A stretch of 64,000 bases of DNA from an uncultured Candidatus Peribacteria bacterium (GTDB lineage Bacteria > Patescibacteriota > Gracilibacteria > Peribacterales > Peribacteraceae), in NCBI GenBank assembly GCA_964427895.1, contig CAYRUZ010000001.1, positions 31,480 through 95,479 on the forward strand, read 5' to 3'. The first letter of the stretch is position 1. Each line of letters begins with the position of its first letter. Shown here one piece after another: positions 54,882-62,009 of the stretch. The translations under genes and the position numbers were made by a program. The notes under the pieces were generated by a model, which searched no databases, had not been told where the DNA came from, and was given only the letters and a program-made list of their open reading frames with translations.

Positions 54882-56057
54882 TCATCCGAACAGATCGACT
54901 GACTGCGACGTCCCAGGGACCCGAATGGAAACGCCGCCCATCTGCTGTGCCAGGTTGATAGCAGCAATGCCGCCGGACTGTTGGATTTTACTGCGGATGT
55001 CTCCGACGGTGTGAAGTTCGCCGGGGATGAGCTCTCCGCCCCCGCGGTAGGCTTTGGGCAGGGGGGTGCGTTGCTTGTTATAAAACGTATTGCTGAACTG
55101 AGCGACAGCTGGACGCAGGGCAAACGTGGACAGAGTGTTGGTCGAGCTGCCTGCAGGGATTCTCTGCTGCACGTAGGGGTAGAATACGGCTGTATCTTTC
55201 TTGGCGTTCGAGACCCAGTAGATTTGGGGTCCCTCTTTGGAAATTTGTCGGAAGGCGGGACTGCGCAGGATGGCGTCGGCCGTTTGTGGGAACACATCAC
55301 GCACAGCTTGTTCGATTTCGGCTTTCACTGGCGCTGCGTTCTTCCGTAATGCCACCTCTGTCAGTTGAGCAGCGAAGGCCCAGAGTTGGGCTTCGGACTC
55401 CTCTTGAAACACCGTGGCAGCGGCGATGTACAGCGCCTCGATCGTTTTGCCAAAGAAGTCGATGTCTTCGAAATCCGGGGGGCACAGCCCGTCGGTACTG
55501 CGCGACAGTTCGCGTCGCCAGCCCCAGGTGCCGGTAGTAGTCAGCTGATCGTCGTGACTCGGTCGAGCGAAGCGCTCCAAGCCCATGGCCAGCGCTTCTT
55601 CGGGGCCGCGCATGAGTGTTGAAATTGCGTGCCGAGTCGCCAGGTGAATAGATTCATGTGTCAGGAAGCTTGTGATGAGTTCCAGTGTTTGCCCATGCAG
55701 GAGATCAACAGGCGAGAGGCCGAGACGCATGGTGATGTCGTCTGACTTGAGTGACACTTCCCTCTGCCCATTCGTTTGCCGCACCTGGTAGGCATGCGAT
55801 TCCACGTACGCGGCGGGGCCATTTTCGCCGATCTGGTTTGAGCGCAAGAACCCGCCGAGCGTCACTTCGCGCGGCGCGTGTTGCAGGAGCACATCAGGGA
55901 GGGAGCGTCCAAGTATGCTGCGGTACGTACGCGTGGCGAGTCCGCACAAGTCTTCTACTTGTGCAGTAGTCAGTCCAAGTTGCCTGAGGCTGTTCTTTCC
56001 TTCGCGGTTGGGCGGTGAGTCTGCCTCAGGAACAAAACGAACATCAGGGATGGCCAT
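54882..56057 (-). CDS. Hypothetical protein with HExxH motif (putative zinc metallopeptidase)
   Basis: LTHESIHLATRH (HExxH, with a further His 5 residues later). No signal peptide. Immediately downstream of tRNA-Asn. Confidence 0.55.
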   Translation of the reverse strand: MAIPDVRFVPEADSPPNREGKNSLRQLGLTTAQVEDLCGLATRTYRSILGRSLPDVLLQHAPREVTLGGFLRSNQIGENGPAAYVESHAYQVRQTNGQREVSLKSDDITMRLGLSPVDLLHGQTLELITSFLTHESIHLATRHAISTLMRGPEEALAMGLERFARPSHDDQLTTTGTWGWRRELSRSTDGLCPPDFEDIDFFGKTIEALYIAAATVFQEESEAQLWAFAAQLTEVALRKNAAPVKAEIEQAVRDVFPQTADAILRSPAFRQISKEGPQIYWVSNAKKDTAVFYPYVQQRIPAGSSTNTLSTFALRPAVAQFSNTFYNKQRTPLPKAYRGGGELIPGELHTVGDIRSKIQQSGGIAAINLAQQMGGVSIRVPGTSQSVDLFG

Positions 56058-56172: not shown

Positions 56173-56247
56173 TGGCTCCCCGACTTGGACTCGAACCAAG
56201 AACCTTGGCGTTAACAGCGCCCTGCTCTACCATTGAGCTATCGGGGA
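56173..56247 (-). tRNA. tRNA-Asn (anticodon GUU), CCA encoded
   Basis: Hand-folded cloverleaf: TCCCCGA-TA-GCTC-AATGGTA-GAGC-A-GGGCG-CTGTTAA-CGCCA-AGGTT-CTTGG-TTCGAGT-CCAAG-TCGGGGA-G-CCA. There is one G-A mismatch at the top of the anticodon stem. Confidence 0.9.
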
Positions 56248-56304: not shown

Positions 56305-57627
56305 TTAGGCGTGTTTGAGCAAACCGAGGTGTTTGCACGATCGGCGGCTCGCCACGCGGTCGTACACGCGCCGTCCCACGGGTGCCACGCCCGGCAAATA
56401 GAGGAACGGAAGGATGATCCAGAACGGCGGAAGGTGCCGCGCGAGGGCGCGCACGCCATCAAAACCCTCGAGCGTGCGACCATCGGGGAAACGCACGTGC
56501 ATCGAACGCTGCAGGTCTTCCAGCTTCAGATCGGGAGCCACCTGCGGGCGGATCACGTCGTCGTACAGATCCACAACGTGCAGTCGCCGCAGCCAGTCGC
56601 TGACGAGGAAAGCAGTGATCCAGTTCTGGCAGAACGAGCAGCTGCCGTCGTACAGCACGACGATCTGTCCTTTCCATTTCTTGTTGCAGTGTGCGCGCAG
56701 CACATCGAAGTCCTCGCCCAGCAGCAGTCCGAAGTAGCCGGTGAACATCGCCAGCGAGAAGATGCCGGCATCCATGATCACCAGGATGCCGAAGTGCAGG
56801 AGGAAACAGCCGTAAATAAGGAAGCGGCGCAGAGAGTACTTGTGCATCCGGCGCGGCAGCAGCGCGCGGCGGACGGGCGTGGGAATCAGCAGGAGGGCCC
56901 ACGAAAGTTGAATGAGTATGGTCAGGTAATTGGCGAGTCCCGTACCCGGCGTCAGGAGATTGATGGCCCAGAGCGGCCAGCGCGTGAACTCCAGGTCGTG
57001 CAGCGACACCACGACGCCCGATCCTTGGCGCCAGAGCGGATCGAGCAGCTTGTACCAGGCGGCAGTCACGTAGACCACGATGTACTGCCACAGGAGCAGG
57101 CGGTAGGGCCATGCGGGTTGCGACCCGGGAGGGAGCAGCGTCTTGTGCTCCGCCCAGTGCGTGCGCTGCGCGAAGAATCGGTCGAGGGAGAACGCCGACA
57201 CGTTGGGGGCCAGCAGCAGGATGTAGCCGAGCACGCGCATCATCGTGTCGCCGCCGGCGAACATGAAGAACGTGTGTTCCTGGAAACTGAAGAGCAGGAT
57301 GACGCTCACGATGGTGGAAAGCTTGGGGCGGAAGCCGATCATCATGCTCGTCAGTGCGAGCAAGAAGAGGATGTACAACGCAACCACGGCCGGGGGAGCG
57401 GTGATGGTGTCGAGCAGCGTGAAGCGGTAATCGCTGCGGACGATCGTCGGGATGATGGACTGCGGGAAGTACCCCTCTCCGCTGTAGTAGCTCACCACGT
57501 CCGGTGCCTGGCAGAGAAAGAAGAACAGGTTGCTCGCCGCCCAGGACGCGCGCATCAATCCGAAGCCGAGCGACGGGATGGGGGCGAAGAAGAAGTCGTG
57601 CGCGATGGTGGCGATGCGGCGCAGCAT
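56305..57627 (-). CDS. Fusion of an HTTM (vitamin K-dependent gamma-carboxylase-like) membrane domain with a C-terminal DCC-type (DUF393) CxxC thiol-disulfide oxidoreductase domain
   Basis: N-terminal 300 aa are polytopic with an HTTM-like start (IAHDFFFAPIPSLGFGLMRASW). The C-terminus has VVLYDGSCSFCQNW (Cys330/Cys333 at 56629..56640), which is the YDG.C..C signature of DCC proteins. Its ATG at 57627 overlaps the upstream stop (TAATG). Confidence 0.7.
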   Translation of the reverse strand: MLRRIATIAHDFFFAPIPSLGFGLMRASWAASNLFFFLCQAPDVVSYYSGEGYFPQSIIPTIVRSDYRFTLLDTITAPPAVVALYILFLLALTSMMIGFRPKLSTIVSVILLFSFQEHTFFMFAGGDTMMRVLGYILLLAPNVSAFSLDRFFAQRTHWAEHKTLLPPGSQPAWPYRLLLWQYIVVYVTAAWYKLLDPLWRQGSGVVVSLHDLEFTRWPLWAINLLTPGTGLANYLTILIQLSWALLLIPTPVRRALLPRRMHKYSLRRFLIYGCFLLHFGILVIMDAGIFSLAMFTGYFGLLLGEDFDVLRAHCNKKWKGQIVVLYDGSCSFCQNWITAFLVSDWLRRLHVVDLYDDVIRPQVAPDLKLEDLQRSMHVRFPDGRTLEGFDGVRALARHLPPFWIILPFLYLPGVAPVGRRVYDRVASRRSCKHLGLLKHA

Positions 57628-58205
57628 TAGAGCGGAAGGGGATCGACCCAGTCGGGCGTTTGGCAGCGGGTGTACCAGGTATCTTCCCACACGGTCCAAT
57701 CCGGTTCCCACTGGCTCCACCACTGATAGTTGGCAGTGCGCTCCGGCATGGGCGGGTCATAGTACGGGTTGGCGAAGTGCAGGTAGGTGCCCGACGCCAT
57801 GCGCAGCTGGATGCATTTGCGCTGGAGGTAGCGCTCGCGCACGGGCCAGCGGTCATTGCCGTCGAAGCTGCGGAGCATCGATGTCTCGGCTTCGTTCTGC
57901 CACCACGGGAGCGCGGCGAACGACAAATCTTTCTTCGGCGTCCATTTGCCATCCTTCCACACGTCGATGCGGCTGGTCATTACGCGCTCCAACGATCCTT
58001 GGGAGAACAACCCCCAGTTCTGCCACTGACTCGTACTCAGAAGGTACGCGCGCGTGTACGGTTCGCTGCCCAGGCGCAGGTCCTGCAGCCACTGGCGCGG
58101 ATCGCGGTCCGGGATGCACCACAGCCCGATAGCCGCCATGTGGTACAGGCAGAAGGAGGCAATCGCAAACTTGGCCAAAGGTTGAGTAAATCGCGAAAAA
58201 CGCAT
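57627..58205 (-). CDS. Trp-rich membrane-anchored hypothetical protein (16 Trp in 192 aa)
   Basis: N-terminal TM helix (FAIASFCLYHMAAIGLWCI) followed by a soluble domain with WW/WxxW strings (PWWQNE, YQWWSQWEPDWTVWEDTWY). Tightly coupled to the genes on both sides. Confidence 0.6.
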   Translation of the reverse strand: MRFSRFTQPLAKFAIASFCLYHMAAIGLWCIPDRDPRQWLQDLRLGSEPYTRAYLLSTSQWQNWGLFSQGSLERVMTSRIDVWKDGKWTPKKDLSFAALPWWQNEAETSMLRSFDGNDRWPVRERYLQRKCIQLRMASGTYLHFANPYYDPPMPERTANYQWWSQWEPDWTVWEDTWYTRCQTPDWVDPLPL

Positions 58206-58207
58206 GT

Positions 58208-59416
58208 TCAGCGAACGGGGCGCAGCAGGACGATTTCACGTCCCACAAACTGATCGCCGCGGCGGTACGTGAGGCTCTTGTGCCCGTCTTCCAGGTCGAT
58301 GCCCGGAGGAAGGACCGCCTCGAAACCTGCGTCGGCGATCGCATCCCATACGCGCTCGAGCCTCTGCGGACCGGTACGCTGGTACCAGACCGGGAAGCTG
58401 AGAACGAGAGGAATGTCTTTGAGGGTCTCCGCTGCGTTCTTGAGGAACGCGATCTCCAGTTTGTCCGCCTCCGCGCGCATGCCCTGCACGTCCTTCACGG
58501 TCGGGCGGGACGACAAGGCCGGTCCGAGCATCGTCTCGGAGACGACGAGGTCCGGTACGTCCTTGAGTGCGAACGGTTTGAGGGCGTCTTGCTTCCATAC
58601 CTGGCTCTTCACCTCGGATTTCTTGATGGTGCTCACTTTGCGCAGCCACTCGATGTTCTTCTGGCAACCGGTCACCGCTTTTTCGGATTTGTCGGAGGCG
58701 AGCACGTTCCAGCCGCGCGCCAGGCATTCCAAGGGAATGACGCCCGTTCCGCAGAAGGGGTCGAGCACCGTCAGCTGCTTCTTCGTTTTCTTTTCGTCGG
58801 GAAGAAGTGACCAGGCGAAATTGATCATCATCTGCGCCAGTTTGGGAGGCAGCAAGCCGGCGCGCGTGTCGCGCACGGGTTTCTCCATATCGCGCAGCGT
58901 GTACGCGTCCGCGTCCTGCGCGGCGATCGTCTTGCCGACGAACAGGAAGTCCTCGTCCCCGAGGATGACGATCTCGCAGCCGCCGCTGCCGTCCGCGATG
59001 CCCGTGTCATGGAGCAGCGGAGTGACGGCCGGCTTGTGTTCGTTGCCCACGTAGCGTGCGCTGCGGCCCGCTTTCTTCAGCGCGTCCTTACATGTGCGGT
59101 AGAGATCGCGGATCACACGCGGCGCAACGCCCGCGCCGCGGAGTGCGAACGTCACCTTGCCTTTTACTCCTTCCGTTTCCGTCACGAGCATCTGCGGGAC
59201 GTCCCCCAGCGAGGGTTCCGCTCCGCTGATGTTCTGTGCGAGCAGCATGGTGCCGCCCCAATTTTTCAAATCCTCCGCCGTGAGCGTTCGTGACGTGTTG
59301 AAGACCGCGACCGAGCGGGCGATGACACGTTGAAGCGTGAAGTCGGGGATGCAGGCGCTCAATTCGGCGATGCTCAGGCGCGGCTGATTGCCCAGGAAGG
59401 CGGCGTACTGCGGCAT
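58208..59416 (-). CDS. Class I SAM-dependent (RNA?) methyltransferase with N-terminal THUMP-like region
   Basis: SAM motif I VLDPFCGTGVIPLE and LASD. The ATG at 59416 is preferred over the TTG at 59437. Confidence 0.65.
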   Translation of the reverse strand: MPQYAAFLGNQPRLSIAELSACIPDFTLQRVIARSVAVFNTSRTLTAEDLKNWGGTMLLAQNISGAEPSLGDVPQMLVTETEGVKGKVTFALRGAGVAPRVIRDLYRTCKDALKKAGRSARYVGNEHKPAVTPLLHDTGIADGSGGCEIVILGDEDFLFVGKTIAAQDADAYTLRDMEKPVRDTRAGLLPPKLAQMMINFAWSLLPDEKKTKKQLTVLDPFCGTGVIPLECLARGWNVLASDKSEKAVTGCQKNIEWLRKVSTIKKSEVKSQVWKQDALKPFALKDVPDLVVSETMLGPALSSRPTVKDVQGMRAEADKLEIAFLKNAAETLKDIPLVLSFPVWYQRTGPQRLERVWDAIADAGFEAVLPPGIDLEDGHKSLTYRRGDQFVGREIVLLRPVR

Positions 59417-59484
59417 GTGCGCAGAATAGCGCGTCAAACTCCGGACGAAATGCTTTCAGACGGGACACCGACTATCGATGCAAG

Positions 59485-60867
59485 TCAATCGCGCACGGAC
59501 CGGACCGCTCCGGGCAGCAATGCACAGAAGAGAAGAGTGGCGATCGGGGCCAAATGGATGAGTCCACGGCCGTAACCGGTTTGGAACGTCGCCTCCACGG
59601 ACAGTGACGTGAAGAGATACAGCGGCAACTGACCGACGAAGAGCAGGATGGTGAATACTGCCAGCGGGCGCAGGCGGCCGAAGGCCTCCGACCGGCGCCA
59701 CACCAGGAGGATGGGAAGCAGTAGCGGCAGCAGCATCCAGTTTCCCTCGAAGAACAGCTGCGTGACGATCGCCTCCGGCGCCGCCGACTGCCAGCCGAGA
59801 CTGAGGCCCGTCACGGCTTTTGCGTTTCCGAACGTCATGCCGTGAGCCCACTTGTACGTCACCCACGGCACGAGAACCGCGGCAACAATCCAGAAGGCCC
59901 ACAGTGCCGCGGAGAGATCACGGCCGCGTCCCCGCACCAGGAGCAAGATCCACAGGACGGCGATGCCGGGCAGATAGAGCAAAATCGCTTCGTTCTTGGT
60001 AAACACGAGCGCTGCCGTCGCGATCGCCGAAACGCGCAGCAGCGAGGTTCGCGCGTCGCCGTCGTTCGCCTCCGCGAGACACAATGTACTGACGGCTACG
60101 AAGAGGAGACTGGCGAGGAAGACGTCGGCATAGGTGTTGGTGCCGTGCATCAGCAGTAACGGCAGGCTGACGAGCAGGCACGTGCCGAGGGCCGCCCACC
60201 ACGCGGTGGTCAGGCGCCGCAACGCGCAGAAGAAGAGTCCCAGCAAGCAGACGAACCATGCGAGGTGCACGATGTTCACGAGCGGCTCGCTCCATGTGCC
60301 AGCCAAAGTCGCTAGGAAGGATTTCGCCAGCGGGACGGCCGGAGGGTACGAGGACACGCCGGTCGGGGCCTGTTCGGGCGTGCTTCCCGGCAGCAGGATT
60401 TGCACGGACTGCGTTTCGAAGAAGACCTTCGCGCGGAAGTTCCAGTTGTCGAGTGAGTCATCCAGGAACGTCGGCGTCAGCACCAAGAAGGTGACGCCCA
60501 TCGTCACGACCTTCACCGCCGTCCACGCACCGAGCAGCAGGACGATGACTTTCGCCCACAGGGGAGTCTTGCCCGAATCGGGAAGAACCGGGCCACGGGC
60601 GAAGAACGGTCGGTGCAGCAGCAGGCACAGCAACGTCAGCCCGACAAGGAGGAACGCGCACAGCCAGATCCACACCATCCTCGTGAGCTCAACACCGAGT
60701 ACATTCGCAAAAAGCGCAACGAATGGCAAAAGCGCCGAGCCCAGCAGAAAGCCTAAAAGTGCACGTTCCATTCGCGAGAGGACCGGTGTGCGTTCAACGG
60801 CGCACAGCGCCAGCCAACCAAGTGCTGCAAGCAGAGTGAAACCGATGACTGCGGCGAGAATGGTCAT
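59485..60867 (-). CDS. Polytopic membrane protein, GT-C/ArnT-PMT-like putative glycosyltransferase
   Basis: About 12 TM helices in a layout resembling family-39/83 glycosyltransferases. No motif was confirmed. Confidence 0.5.
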   Translation of the reverse strand: MTILAAVIGFTLLAALGWLALCAVERTPVLSRMERALLGFLLGSALLPFVALFANVLGVELTRMVWIWLCAFLLVGLTLLCLLLHRPFFARGPVLPDSGKTPLWAKVIVLLLGAWTAVKVVTMGVTFLVLTPTFLDDSLDNWNFRAKVFFETQSVQILLPGSTPEQAPTGVSSYPPAVPLAKSFLATLAGTWSEPLVNIVHLAWFVCLLGLFFCALRRLTTAWWAALGTCLLVSLPLLLMHGTNTYADVFLASLLFVAVSTLCLAEANDGDARTSLLRVSAIATAALVFTKNEAILLYLPGIAVLWILLLVRGRGRDLSAALWAFWIVAAVLVPWVTYKWAHGMTFGNAKAVTGLSLGWQSAAPEAIVTQLFFEGNWMLLPLLLPILLVWRRSEAFGRLRPLAVFTILLFVGQLPLYLFTSLSVEATFQTGYGRGLIHLAPIATLLFCALLPGAVRSVRD

Positions 60868-62009
60868 TGTTCGACGAAGACGAAAGAATAGTCGGATGTT
60901 CTGCTCACTTCCTTTCCGCGTCCGAGGACCGTGCCGTCATCCAGCACGAGAGCGCCCGATTGAGTATGCACATCAGGGCGATGGAAGACGATCCACGTGG
61001 TGATGTCATCGGGGAACGGGGCTTGCTGCACCGGACGCGCGGGGCTCAGGAAGTACTGCGCGTATGGGAAGACGGGGATGCCTTTCGGCGCCAACAACCC
61101 GACGGAGTTCTGCCCCGTGGTAAATGGCGAAGCCGATTCGAGTAGCCCGTAGAGATCTTCCGTTCCGCGCAGGGTGCGTTCCGAGGTCGGACGCTGCACG
61201 TAGTTTGACCAATCGGTGCGGACGTAGGACAGGAATTCGGCGCCCATGCGCACGTCGAGCAACATCCATGCCGCTGCCGAACCGATGATAAGGCCCAGGA
61301 GAGCGCCCGTCGCTATGCGCTTCTCGCGGATCCACGCTGCCAGCGCGAAGCCGGCGCACATGAGGATGGTGAAGGCATAGATCCAGCGATTACCCGAGTG
61401 GGCATACGGAGGAAAGTGATCGTAGAGTTCATCGATGCCGGTTTCGCTCTTTGCCAGCAGAGGGCCCCACAAGAAATTGATGCTGTGGGCGCGGAACTCG
61501 TTGAGCGTCCAGAAGCTGCGCAGGGAGTGCGACCACCGCTCTGCAGCCGTGTACTGCGTCAGTTCAAGTCCTTCGAGATACAGCGCGCCGCCCTCAGGAA
61601 GAGAGAAGCCGATGCGATCGGTGCGAGGGTCCCATTCCGGCAGGTCGGCCGCTGGGATGTTTGCGACGACCTCTCCCGGTCGCAGGGTGAAGGGGTAGAT
61701 GTTGAAGTTGCCCTGCTCCTTGTCCAGGGAATGCCACAGGAATTGCATCTGGGTCGTGTCCGGCACCTGCAAATGCGCCGTGATATCGTGGATGGAAATG
61801 GCGCTTGTGACGGGGCGCTCGACGATTCCGTCCTTCGCGAAGATCAGCACCGGCTGGCCTCCCACATCGCGCACCTGCACGTTGTGCAACAGCCACAAAT
61901 TATCCAGGCGCACGTCGACCGTCTGCTTCGCCGAAGCGGCGACAGGCAGTGCGATGAGCAGGAAGGCGAGAAGCGAGAAACCGCGGCGCATCGGAGGCGA
62001 GTGTAGCAT
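60864..62009 (-). CDS. Hypothetical membrane protein (signal peptide, large extracytoplasmic domain, about 3 TM helices)
   Basis: Its ATG is 1 nt after the alaS stop, and its own stop overlaps the next ATG (ATGA). Confidence 0.55.
   Translation of the reverse strand: MLHSPPMRRGFSLLAFLLIALPVAASAKQTVDVRLDNLWLLHNVQVRDVGGQPVLIFAKDGIVERPVTSAISIHDITAHLQVPDTTQMQFLWHSLDKEQGNFNIYPFTLRPGEVVANIPAADLPEWDPRTDRIGFSLPEGGALYLEGLELTQYTAAERWSHSLRSFWTLNEFRAHSINFLWGPLLAKSETGIDELYDHFPPYAHSGNRWIYAFTILMCAGFALAAWIREKRIATGALLGLIIGSAAAWMLLDVRMGAEFLSYVRTDWSNYVQRPTSERTLRGTEDLYGLLESASPFTTGQNSVGLLAPKGIPVFPYAQYFLSPARPVQQAPFPDDITTWIVFHRPDVHTQSGALVLDDGTVLGRGKEVSRTSDYSFVFVEQ

What the first reader, a model, noticed from the sequence alone, without database searches (positions are those of the whole stretch)
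56305..58205. HTTM (gamma-carboxylase-like) domain fused to a DCC CxxC oxidoreductase, coupled to a Trp-rich partner
The 440-aa protein joins a polytopic HTTM domain to a C-terminal DCC/DUF393 domain carrying the YDGSCSFC redox motif. HTTM is the fold of the vertebrate vitamin K-dependent gamma-glutamyl carboxylase. In the vertebrate vitamin K cycle the carboxylase depends on a separate CxxC thiol oxidoreductase (VKOR) to regenerate the quinol. A covalent fusion of the two activity types therefore suggests a self-contained quinone/thiol-coupled protein-modification or epoxidase module. The gene is translationally coupled (TAATG) to an upstream gene for a membrane-anchored protein with 16 Trp in 192 aa. 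That protein could be a partner or a substrate. The functions of bacterial HTTM and DCC proteins are essentially uncharacterised. The operon continues upstream into a SAM methyltransferase (2-nt gap) and ends next to tRNA-Asn.
Basis: partly seen in the sequence, partly recalled or inferred. Interest (0 to 1): 0.6.

Follow-up and report, generated by a model that had tools for sequence, protein, structure and literature searches.

The report
Split vitamin-K-carboxylase-like membrane enzyme pair
A candidate-phylum (Peribacteria) bacterium carries a two-gene membrane enzyme related to the human vitamin K-dependent carboxylase, fused to a thiol-redox domain; this module has already been described in other bacteria, but this genome shows no way to make quinones.

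Summary
A 440-aa ORF (56305-57627, minus strand) joins a polytopic membrane domain to a C-terminal DCC1-like domain (Pfam E 9e-17, D327-x-x-C330-x-x-C333). It overlaps, by TAATG, a 192-aa gene with 16 Trp.

The membrane domain misses Pfam's HTTM cut-off (18.2 vs 27.7 bits). Its AF2 model (pLDDT 93) hits only human GGCX in the PDB, and profile-profile alignment (E 3e-5) matches K193, W199 and F290 to GGCX K218, W223 and F299. GGCX D263 is Gln here, and the Glu-binding N159/H160 are not kept.

The Trp-rich protein is a divergent DUF5819-like partner. A homologue lies directly upstream of the HTTM gene in all 71 distinct Peribacteria genome loci, including copies without DCC. In three other Patescibacteria it is fused behind HTTM-DCC.

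Topology puts the Lys site outside and the CxxC domain in the cytoplasm. The methyltransferase is a Trm11-like tRNA enzyme and only a lineage-specific neighbour.

A 2026 preprint already describes the DUF5819 + HTTM-DCC pair in Firmicutes, so this is a new member of a known, functionally untested kind. The genome (95% complete) has no MenA/UbiA-type quinone prenyltransferase, VKOR, DsbB or cytochrome bd. That weakens a self-contained vitamin K cycle.

The parts
57627..58205 (-). Partner gene: a 192-aa single-pass membrane protein with 16 Trp, a divergent DUF5819-like family member. It has an N-terminal positively charged stretch, a TM helix (about residues 7-29), and then an extracytoplasmic domain. 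That domain carries the motif SQWQNWGLF (family consensus SQWQxWxxFSPDP) and two invariant Cys (C131, C181).
   Evidence: ORF and TAATG overlap. AF2 model pLDDT 89. Invariant columns. A homologue lies immediately upstream of the HTTM gene in all 76 fetched loci (71 distinct genome loci). Ten of 66 family members weakly match PF19136 DUF5819 (best E 6e-4); the window's own copy does not. It aligns with the C-terminal tails of triple-fusion proteins.
56683..57627 (-). HTTM (GGCX-like) polytopic membrane domain, residues 1-315 of the 440-aa protein, with about 8 TM helices. The predicted active-site Lys193 codon is at 57049-57051.
   Evidence: Pfam HTTM 18.2 bits, below the cut-off. AF2 pLDDT 93. 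Foldseek top 16 PDB hits are all human GGCX (E 4e-6 to 3e-2). hhalign to GGCX gives E 2e-5 and 3e-5. K193, W199 and F290 are 79/79, 79/79 and 78/79 conserved.
56341..56658 (-). DCC1-like (DUF393) thioredoxin-like domain, residues 324-429. The DxxCxxC motif is D327, C330, C333, and the CxxC codons are at 56629-56640. Predicted to be cytoplasmic.
   Evidence: PF04134 E 9.3e-17, above the cut-off. D/C/C is invariant in 69 of 69 DCC-bearing homologues. Topology from the positive-inside rule. Domain order HTTM-DCC-TM-tail in the fusions.

Best explanation
The two overlapping genes encode the Peribacteria version of the bacterial DUF5819-like + HTTM-DCC module. [quoted passage not shown]

Shown:
- The 440-aa protein has the GGCX transmembrane core with Lys193, Trp199 and Phe290 at the positions of GGCX Lys218 (general base), Trp223 and Phe299.
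- It has a conserved redox CxxC in a DCC1-like domain.
- The 192-aa protein is an obligate genomic partner.

Inferred from topology:
- The N-terminus is inside.
- The Lys site lies at the outer leaflet, next to the partner's extracytoplasmic domain.
- The DCC domain is in the cytoplasm.

Inferred mechanism (untested):
- The HTTM/partner complex uses a lipid-soluble redox cofactor (a quinol in characterised relatives) and Lys193 to generate a reactive species on the outer face.
- That species modifies an envelope substrate that is not a Glu-peptide.
- The cytoplasmic CxxC domain, kept reduced by the cell's thiol systems, re-reduces or otherwise services the cofactor. There is no transmembrane Cys relay, so a lipid carrier is the only evident link between the two faces.
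- DCC is an accessory. Some orthologues have lost it.
For: Identity of the domains:
- DCC: Pfam.
- HTTM: Foldseek top 16 PDB hits are all GGCX; hhalign E 2.2e-5 and 3.1e-5 over 205-270 columns.
- Residue mapping and conservation: K193=K218 and W199=W223 in 79/79, F290=F299 in 78/79, H278=H287 in 78/79. Residue roles are taken from PMC12647623 and PMC13486548.

Partner:
- 76/76 fetched loci, that is all 71 distinct genome loci plus 5 loci (two of them the same places as loci), have a homologue directly upstream on the same strand.
- This holds for 8 HTTM genes lacking DCC and for a tandem-duplicated pair.
- HTTM-DCC-TM-partner-like fusions of 597-689 aa occur in three other Patescibacteria.
- The same architecture (DUF5819 protein plus a 447-aa HTTM/DCC1-like protein) was modelled as a GGCX-like complex in bioRxiv 10.64898/2026.08.19.745780.

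Topology:
- K+R-rich loops alternate as expected for N-in with DCC inside.
- No Cys is conserved in the HTTM part.
Against: - No biochemical data exist for any member of this module.
- The window's protein has Gln at the GGCX Asp263 position. Across the family it is Q 38, E 35, H 3. In GGCX only D263E retains partial activity (cited in PMC13486548).
- Asn290 is Ile, and the Glu-binding N159/H160 are not kept.
- The genome (95% complete) has no VKOR, DsbB or cytochrome bd. Its only UbiA-family gene is a HAD-fused DPPR-synthase-like PRK08238 type, not MenA/UbiA.
- Published Peribacteria genomes lack most respiratory components (PMC4736985). An endogenous quinol is therefore not evident.
- The CxxC domain sits on the opposite membrane face from the Lys site.
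- DCC is missing from some orthologues.
- The partner's model has no significant PDB match, and its profile does not align significantly to GGCX (E 0.44).
Confidence: 0.55

Rival explanations
1. This is a self-contained vitamin K cycle. HTTM would act as a quinol epoxidase or gamma-carboxylase. The fused DCC CxxC would play the VKOR role and regenerate quinol from the epoxide or quinone. The Trp-rich protein would be the substrate or a partner.
For: - The catalytic Lys/Trp pair and the CO2-stacking Phe are conserved.
- The CxxC is invariant.
- There is no Cys relay through the membrane, so a quinone would be the natural link.
- Giant-virus GGCX-like epoxidases with Glu/Ile at the D263/N290 positions are linked to VKOR (PMC13486548).
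Against: - No quinone prenyltransferase, VKOR, DsbB or cytochrome bd is found in the genome.
- Gln replaces Asp263 in this protein.
- The Glu-binding residues are absent.
- DCC is cytoplasmic while the Lys site faces out.
- DCC is dispensable in some orthologues.
- The partner behaves as a subunit, being fused in cis elsewhere, and not as a substrate.
Confidence: 0.2
2. This is a quinone-independent maturation or chaperone factor for exported proteins, in the manner of other HTTM-superfamily members (B. subtilis SdpB with SdpA; eukaryotic LMF1). The DCC domain would act as a cytoplasmic redox sensor or regulator.
For: - There is a weak SdpB-family match (TIGR04033 E 1.4e-4, residues 85-295).
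- The genome lacks quinone-related genes.
- Peribacteria export many Cys-rich proteins (PMC4736985) yet have no DsbB or VKOR.
Against: - The SdpB score is far below its cut-off (21.5 vs 178.4 bits).
- There is no SdpA or SdpC match, and no conserved small secreted gene nearby.
- Strict invariance of the residues equivalent to the GGCX general base and its stacking Trp argues for catalysis.
- A cytoplasmic CxxC cannot oxidise exported thiols directly.
Confidence: 0.2
3. The adjacency and the fusion are incidental, arising from assembly or frameshift artefact or from mere synteny, and have no joint function.
For: None found. Only the methyltransferase neighbour behaves like lineage-specific synteny.
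Against: - The fusion is full-length in more than 100 independent assemblies.
- Partner linkage is 76/76 fetched loci (all 71 distinct genome loci), with start/stop overlaps.
- There is a cis-fusion in other lineages.
Confidence: 0.02

Closest known systems
DUF5819 protein + HTTM/DCC1-like protein pair of Melghirimyces thermohalophilus (A0A1G6IAS5 / A0A1G6IBF2), modelled with AlphaFold 3 in bioRxiv 10.64898/2026.08.19.745780
   Same: - The genes are adjacent.
- The partner has an N-terminal TM helix plus a domain of about 160 aa.
- The enzyme is about 440-447 aa, with HTTM followed by DCC1-like at almost the same coordinates (323-431 there, 324-429 here).
- A conserved Lys and a Trp six residues later are present (K189/W195 there, K193/W199 here).
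   Different: - The window's partner does not match Pfam DUF5819 at all. Only 10 of 66 relatives match, and weakly.
- It is unusually Trp-rich, and its FSPxP motif is degenerate (FSQGS).
- The host is a small-genome CPR bacterium without recognisable quinone genes.
- No complex model could be made here.
[quoted passage not shown]
   Same: - The fold of the transmembrane core is shared (Foldseek E about 4e-6, about 320 columns).
- Lys218, Trp223, His287 and Phe299 have equivalents.
- The inferred topology is the same, with the Lys site at the outer or luminal leaflet.
   Different: - Sequence identity is 16-18%.
- The luminal domain (PF22777) is absent from the polypeptide and is replaced by a separate small protein.
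- Asp263 is Gln, Asn290 is Ile, and N159/H160 are not kept.
- A cytoplasmic DCC domain sits where GGCX has a basic cytoplasmic loop.
- No vitamin K-dependent substrates or VKOR are present in the genome.
Giant-virus gamma-carboxylase-like vitamin K epoxidases (VKE/VKED; PMC13486548)
   Same: - It is a truncated GGCX core that keeps the catalytic Lys.
- It has Ile at the Asn290 position and Glu (in about half of this family) at the Asp263 position.
- It lacks the carboxylation-specific region in cis.
- It is coupled to a thiol-redox partner.
   Different: - The viral enzymes pair with VKOR and a sterol or fatty-acid desaturase, not with DCC and a DUF5819-like subunit.
- The window's protein has Gln, not Glu.
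B. subtilis SdpA/SdpB (SDP toxin maturation)
   Same: A small protein plus an HTTM-family polytopic membrane protein are encoded side by side.
   Different: - The SdpB model score is far below its cut-off.
- There is no SdpA match.
- There is no SdpC-like toxin or SdpRI immunity genes.
- SdpB has no DCC domain.

Membership tests
HTTM / GGCX-like membrane domain (PF05090) | Pfam HTTM score at or above the gathering cut-off (27.7 bits) | tested here: not met
   The window protein scores 18.2 bits, E 0.002, and 21.1 bits in the genome scan. Some relatives, and the fused Patescibacteria forms, do pass: precomputed PF05090, and 40.8 bits for L078.
HTTM / GGCX-like membrane domain (PF05090) | Structural similarity of the transmembrane core to solved GGCX | tested here: met
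   For the AF2 model (pLDDT 93.1), the top 16 Foldseek PDB hits are all GGCX. Fifteen have E 3.6e-6 to 6.7e-4, and the sixteenth (9bum_A) has E 2.7e-2. All have probability 1.0 and 306-357 columns; the next hits have E above 0.8. hhalign gives E 2.2e-5 and 3.1e-5.
Vitamin K-dependent carboxylase (GGCX proper) | General base Lys218 with stacking Trp223 | tested here: met
   K193 and W199 align to K218 and W223 and are invariant in 79/79 homologues.
Vitamin K-dependent carboxylase (GGCX proper) | Asp263 and Asn290 contacting the quinol hydroxyls | tested here: not met
   The window has Q240 and I281. Across the family the D263 position is Q 38, E 35, H 3, and the N290 position is Ile in 75/79.
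Vitamin K-dependent carboxylase (GGCX proper) | Glu-substrate binding residues N159/H160/Y395 and the luminal domain (PF22777) in the same chain | tested here: not met
   N159/H160 align to G125/G126. There is no PF22777 match in either protein. The partner's profile versus the GGCX family gives E 0.44.
Vitamin K-dependent carboxylase (GGCX proper) | Quinol- and O2-dependent epoxidase/carboxylase activity | not testable with these tools
   This needs biochemistry. The genome context argues against an endogenous quinone.
DCC1-like thiol-disulfide oxidoreductase (PF04134 / DUF393) | Pfam score above the cut-off and the DxxCxxC motif | tested here: met
   62.7 bits vs 27.8, residues 324-429. D327, C330 and C333 are invariant in 69/69.
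DCC1-like thiol-disulfide oxidoreductase (PF04134 / DUF393) | Thioredoxin-like fold | tested here: inconclusive
   The model shows a beta-alpha-beta...beta-beta-alpha pattern followed by extra helices. Glutaredoxin and PDI hits have only E 1.4-4.6.
DUF5819 + HTTM-DCC two-gene module | A small single-pass membrane protein is encoded immediately upstream of, and co-oriented with, the HTTM gene, and this is conserved across genomes | tested here: met
   76/76 fetched loci (all 71 distinct genome loci) plus the window. There is a cis-fusion in L078-L080.
DUF5819 + HTTM-DCC two-gene module | Partner matches Pfam DUF5819 (PF19136, cut-off 27.1 bits) | tested here: not met
   The window's partner has no match even at E 10. 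Ten of 66 relatives match weakly, with best E 6e-4, far more members than match any other family. The consensus motif WxxFSPDP resembles the DUF5819 motif reported in an earlier scan note, which was not checked independently.
DUF5819 + HTTM-DCC two-gene module | Predicted physical complex in which the partner caps the HTTM pocket | not testable with these tools
   No multimer prediction is available. The only support is the preprint's AF3 model of a Firmicutes pair.
SdpA/SdpB toxin-maturation system | SdpB-family score above the cut-off, an SdpA-family partner, and an SdpC-like precursor nearby | tested here: not met
   TIGR04033 scores 21.5 vs 178.4 bits. There is no SdpA hit for any of the 66 partners. 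Downstream are tRNA-Asn and a non-conserved ORF.
VKOR / DsbB quinone-linked thiol oxidoreductases | Presence of a VKOR or DsbB domain in the locus or genome | tested here: not met
   PF07884 and PF02600 have no match in the whole genome.

The most novel reading that the evidence does not exclude
In a non-respiring CPR bacterium that makes no quinone, the split GGCX-like enzyme with its cytoplasmic CxxC domain would be a thiol-powered membrane redox machine. It would run either on quinone scavenged from a host or neighbour cell, or on a non-quinone lipid cofactor. It would use cytoplasmic reducing power to drive an outer-face modification of envelope proteins or lipids, or simply to consume O2. 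This would be a new physiological role for the GGCX fold and for DCC domains.
Probability: 0.12. Interest if true: 0.75.

Novelty: new member of a known kind. Interest (0 to 1): 0.4.

Why it matters
Bacterial GGCX-like (HTTM) proteins and DCC domains are widespread, and almost none has a known function. This locus adds four points:
1. The DUF5819-type partner family extends well beyond what Pfam detects, into the Candidate Phyla Radiation.
2. Natural HTTM-DCC-partner fusions fix the order and membrane sidedness of the three parts.
3. The general-base Lys and its Trp are invariant, while the acidic partner and the Glu-binding residues are not.
4. The module persists in genomes with no recognisable quinone biosynthesis, VKOR, DsbB or terminal oxidase.

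The fourth point is a concrete challenge to the assumption that all such enzymes depend on vitamin K. It defines a clean test case for cofactor identification.

Tried and rejected
Searches that gave nothing:
- A sequence search of the PDB with the family profile, or with single relatives, found no GGCX. Only structure and profile-profile comparison did.
- Global hhalign gave nonsense; local mode worked.
- The partner's AF2 model had no significant PDB match.
- hhalign of the partner profile against human GGCX, or against a 20-species vertebrate GGCX alignment, was not significant (E 0.33-0.44). The same GGCX stretch, 414-481, came up each time. Sequence-level homology of the partner to the GGCX luminal region is therefore not established.
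- My last homologue search, seeded with GGCX, returned only vertebrate sequences of at least 79% identity and gave too little diversity.
- Pfam found nothing in the C-terminal tails of the triple fusions, or in the small ORFs next to HTTM-only genes in L081.
- The exhaustive profile search with the partner family listed only close relatives in its top 150. It gave 603 hits at E <= 1e-3 and 163 at E <= 1e-30, so it did not bridge to canonical DUF5819.

Readings rejected:
- The SdpAB reading.
- The methyltransferase as part of the module.
- The partner as substrate. It is rejected in favour of subunit because it is fused in cis elsewhere.
- Artefact.

Full report
**1. What is in the sequence**

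On the minus strand there is a run of tightly packed genes:
- a 381-aa ORF (60864-62009);
- a 460-aa polytopic membrane ORF (59485-60867, ATGA overlap);
- a 409-aa methyltransferase (58208-59437);
- a 192-aa ORF (57627-58205), starting 2 nt after the methyltransferase stop;
- a 440-aa ORF (56305-57627), whose ATG overlaps the upstream TAA as TAATG.

tRNA-Asn(GTT) follows at 56173-56247. A longer GTG-initiated frame of 472 aa exists, but 35 homologues align from the ATG-equivalent position. The 192-aa protein has 16 Trp.

**2. The 440-aa protein**

Sequence evidence:
- Pfam gives DCC1-like (PF04134) at residues 324-429 with E 9.3e-17.
- Pfam gives only a sub-threshold HTTM match (18.2 bits against a 27.7 cut-off).
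- NCBIfam gives a weak SdpB-family match, far below its cut-off.

Structural evidence:
- With a 36-sequence alignment (A2), AlphaFold2 gave a model with mean pLDDT 93.1.
- Its top 16 Foldseek hits in the PDB are all human vitamin K-dependent gamma-carboxylase. Fifteen have E 3.6e-6 to 6.7e-4 and the sixteenth has E 2.7e-2, all with probability 1.0 and 306-357 aligned columns. Everything after them has E above 0.8.
- Sequence searches of the PDB did not find GGCX.

Alignment to GGCX:
- I recalled the human GGCX sequence and verified it against PDB chains. It was identical except for two residues, which I corrected.
- I then aligned the family profile to it. hhalign gave E 2.2e-5 over 205 columns against the single sequence, and E 3.1e-5 over 270 columns against a 20-species GGCX alignment.

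| Window residue | GGCX residue |
|---|---|
| K193 | K218 |
| W199 | W223 |
| Q240 | D263 |
| L277 | F286 |
| H278 | H287 |
| I281 | N290 |
| F290 | F299 |
| G125/G126 | N159/H160 |

According to PMC12647623 and PMC13486548, the GGCX residues have these roles:
- K218 is the general base that deprotonates the quinol.
- W223 stacks on K218.
- D263 and N290 contact the quinol hydroxyls.
- F299 holds CO2.
- N159, H160 and Y395 bind the substrate Glu.

Conservation across 79 homologues:
- K193 and W199 are invariant.
- F290 and H278 are 78/79.
- The D263 position is Q (38), E (35) or H (3).
- The N290 position is Ile in 75.
- D327, C330 and C333 are present in all 69 DCC-bearing sequences.

So the deprotonation core is kept. 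The acidic partner is optional, and it is Gln in this window. The Glu-binding site is absent. That pattern resembles the giant-virus "vitamin K epoxidase" domains (Glu and Ile at these positions) more than a true gamma-glutamyl carboxylase.

**3. The 192-aa protein**

Direct searches:
- It has no Pfam or NCBIfam match, even at E 10.
- A whole-genome scan with PF19136 (DUF5819) found nothing.
- A word-seeded search found only two close relatives. These are the 192-aa protein's own relatives P0122 and P0123, which lie on contigs of the same length (7394 and 8941 bases) as those of the HTTM-DCC relatives P0002 and P0003.

Neighbourhoods told the real story:
- In three distant relatives, a 163-206-aa ORF sits in the same place, and these ORFs align with the window's protein.
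- I fetched 71 Peribacteria genome loci and searched their ORFs with a profile of the small protein.
- All 76 loci then in hand (the 71 distinct genome loci plus 5, two of which are the same places) have a homologue directly upstream on the same strand, usually overlapping the HTTM start.
- This holds for eight HTTM genes that lack the DCC domain, with no separate DCC ORF nearby.
- It also holds for a tandem duplication of the whole pair (L037).

Family features:
- A 66-member alignment (A3) shows invariant Y54, Q62, W64, F67, C131, P152 and C181.
- The consensus motif is SQWQxWxxFSPDP. The window's copy reads SQWQNWGLFSQGS.
- When each member was scanned against Pfam, 10 of 66 matched DUF5819 weakly (best E 6e-4). 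No other family matched more than 4.
- The AF2 model (pLDDT 89) has an N-terminal TM helix, a second long helix and a small alpha/beta domain. It has no significant PDB neighbour.
- An exhaustive profile search found 163 cluster representatives at E <= 1e-30 and 603 at E <= 1e-3.

**4. Rosetta-stone fusions and topology**

A scan of 301 Patescibacteria genomes found the HTTM-DCC protein in 12. In three genomes outside the window's family, the gene is 597-689 aa long. These proteins run HTTM, then DCC1-like (both confirmed by Pfam), then a basic linker, one TM helix, and a tail of about 190 aa. The tail carries LRLDQxWNMFSPxP and two Cys at the positions of C131 and C181. hhalign of A3 against these tails gives E 1.9e-4.

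The partner is therefore a subunit that can be fused in cis. One TM helix separates DCC from the partner domain, so the two lie on opposite sides of the membrane.

Loop charges across the family fit an N-in topology, in which the N-terminus and loops 140-172, 248-265 and 304-320 are inside and loops 40-77, 196-218 and 285-289 are outside:
- K+R is 5.2, 3.1 and 4.2 in the inside loops 140-172, 248-265 and 304-320. The N-terminal segment (residues 1-19) has 2.8.
- K+R is 1.2 and 0 in the outside loops 196-218 and 285-289. Loop 40-77 has K+R 2.8 but D+E 4.3, so it is net negative.

This places K193 at the outer end of a TM helix, as in GGCX, and DCC in the cytoplasm. The partner's basic N-terminus and single TM helix place its domain outside. 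No Cys is conserved in the HTTM part, so there is no thiol relay across the membrane.

**5. Context**

Named relatives are all Candidatus Peribacteria or Peregrinibacteria. The genome is 1.35 Mb, 60% GC and 95% complete. In the order, 101 of 151 genomes have a match. Most matches are full-length, some are HTTM-only, and some are stand-alone DCC.

The methyltransferase:
- Its best PDB match is archaeal tRNA (guanine10-N2)-dimethyltransferase (E 1e-5), alongside TIGR01177/UPF0020-type hits.
- It lies upstream in 62 of 71 Peribacteria loci.
- It is absent from second-copy loci (L069, L070, L074) and from the non-Peribacteria loci.
- It is a housekeeping neighbour kept by synteny.

Quinone-related genes in the genome:
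- There is one HTTM and one DCC, both in this gene.
- There is no VKOR, DsbB or cytochrome bd.
- The single UbiA-family gene is a HAD-fused, DPPR-synthase-like PRK08238 protein, not MenA or UbiA.
- Published complete Peribacteria genomes lack most respiratory components but have a mevalonate pathway and many Cys-rich exported proteins (PMC4736985).

**6. What is known**

A bioRxiv preprint of August 2026 (10.64898/2026.08.19.745780) describes the adjacent DUF5819 and HTTM/DCC1-like proteins of Melghirimyces thermohalophilus.
- Its AF3 complex resembles whole GGCX.
- The partner's TM helix overlays a GGCX helix, and its domain overlays one side of the GGCX clamp.
- Conserved Lys189, Trp195 and Phe273 surround the modelled menaquinol.
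- The preprint notes that MloH of malonomycin biosynthesis is the fused form.
- The window's enzyme has the same length and domain coordinates.

Earlier notes of this scan report the same module in at least 11 other genomes. I treated these as leads. My own data agree on the strict partner linkage and on rejecting the SdpABC reading.

**7. Verdict**

- the partner is a subunit, not a substrate;
- the methyltransferase is unrelated;
- DCC is a cytoplasmic thioredoxin-like accessory, not a VKOR equivalent;
- the organism appears to lack quinones;
- one of the quinol-contacting residues is not conserved here.

The locus is a new, divergent member of a recently recognised but biochemically untested module. 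Its main added value is the CPR setting, the natural triple fusions that fix the topology, and the tension between a conserved GGCX-type base and a quinone-less genome.

Noticed in passing
58208-59437 (-): A 409-aa SAM methyltransferase whose best PDB match is archaeal tRNA (guanine10-N2)-dimethyltransferase (Trm11/TrmG10-like, E 1e-5). It has an N-terminal domain of about 200 aa with no match. It lies upstream of the pair in 62 of 71 Peribacteria loci but not elsewhere.
   Followed up: partly
59485-62009 (-): A 460-aa polytopic membrane protein and a 381-aa protein are translationally coupled (ATGA) and have no Pfam or NCBIfam match. They are syntenic upstream of the methyltransferase in 37 and 30 of 71 Peribacteria loci. 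They could be envelope-modification proteins.
   Followed up: partly
L078:1303-3372(-), L079:1377-3170(-), L080:1273-3270(-): Single polypeptides of 597-689 aa in other Patescibacteria combine HTTM, DCC1-like, one TM helix and a partner-like tail (motif DQxWNMFSPxP, two Cys). Pfam does not recognise the tail.
   Followed up: yes
L057, L059, L061, L064, L072 (syntenic) and L069, L070, L074 (second copies); L037:3417-7105: Some Peribacteria orthologues and paralogues of the HTTM gene lack the DCC domain, with no separate DCC ORF nearby. One genome has the whole pair duplicated in tandem. Other genomes of the order have only stand-alone DCC proteins of 111-150 aa that score 110-177 bits against the fused domain.
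   Followed up: partly
56305-56350 (-), C-terminus of the 440-aa protein: Most homologues end in a conserved R-x-x-C-x-x-G-x-x-C motif after the DCC domain. The window's protein keeps only the first Cys (C437) and ends ...CKHLGLLKHA. A possible second Cys pair is therefore lost here.
   Followed up: no
genome contig C19:8057-9595 (-): The only UbiA-family gene of the genome is a 512-aa fusion of a HAD-like phosphatase domain to a DPPR-synthase-like prenyltransferase (NCBIfam PRK08238, 538 bits). A 473-aa membrane ORF lies next to it. This is probably envelope glycolipid or arabinan-type chemistry, not quinone synthesis.
   Followed up: partly
54882-56057 (-): A 391-aa ORF downstream of tRNA-Asn has no family match and no homologue in any of the 71 related loci. 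It is a lineage-specific gene of unknown function.
   Followed up: partly
L081:1531-5487: Another Patescibacteria genome has two divergently placed HTTM-only genes (306 and 335 aa). Each is preceded by an overlapping ORF of about 180 aa that neither my partner profile nor Pfam recognises. These may be still more divergent partners.
   Followed up: partly
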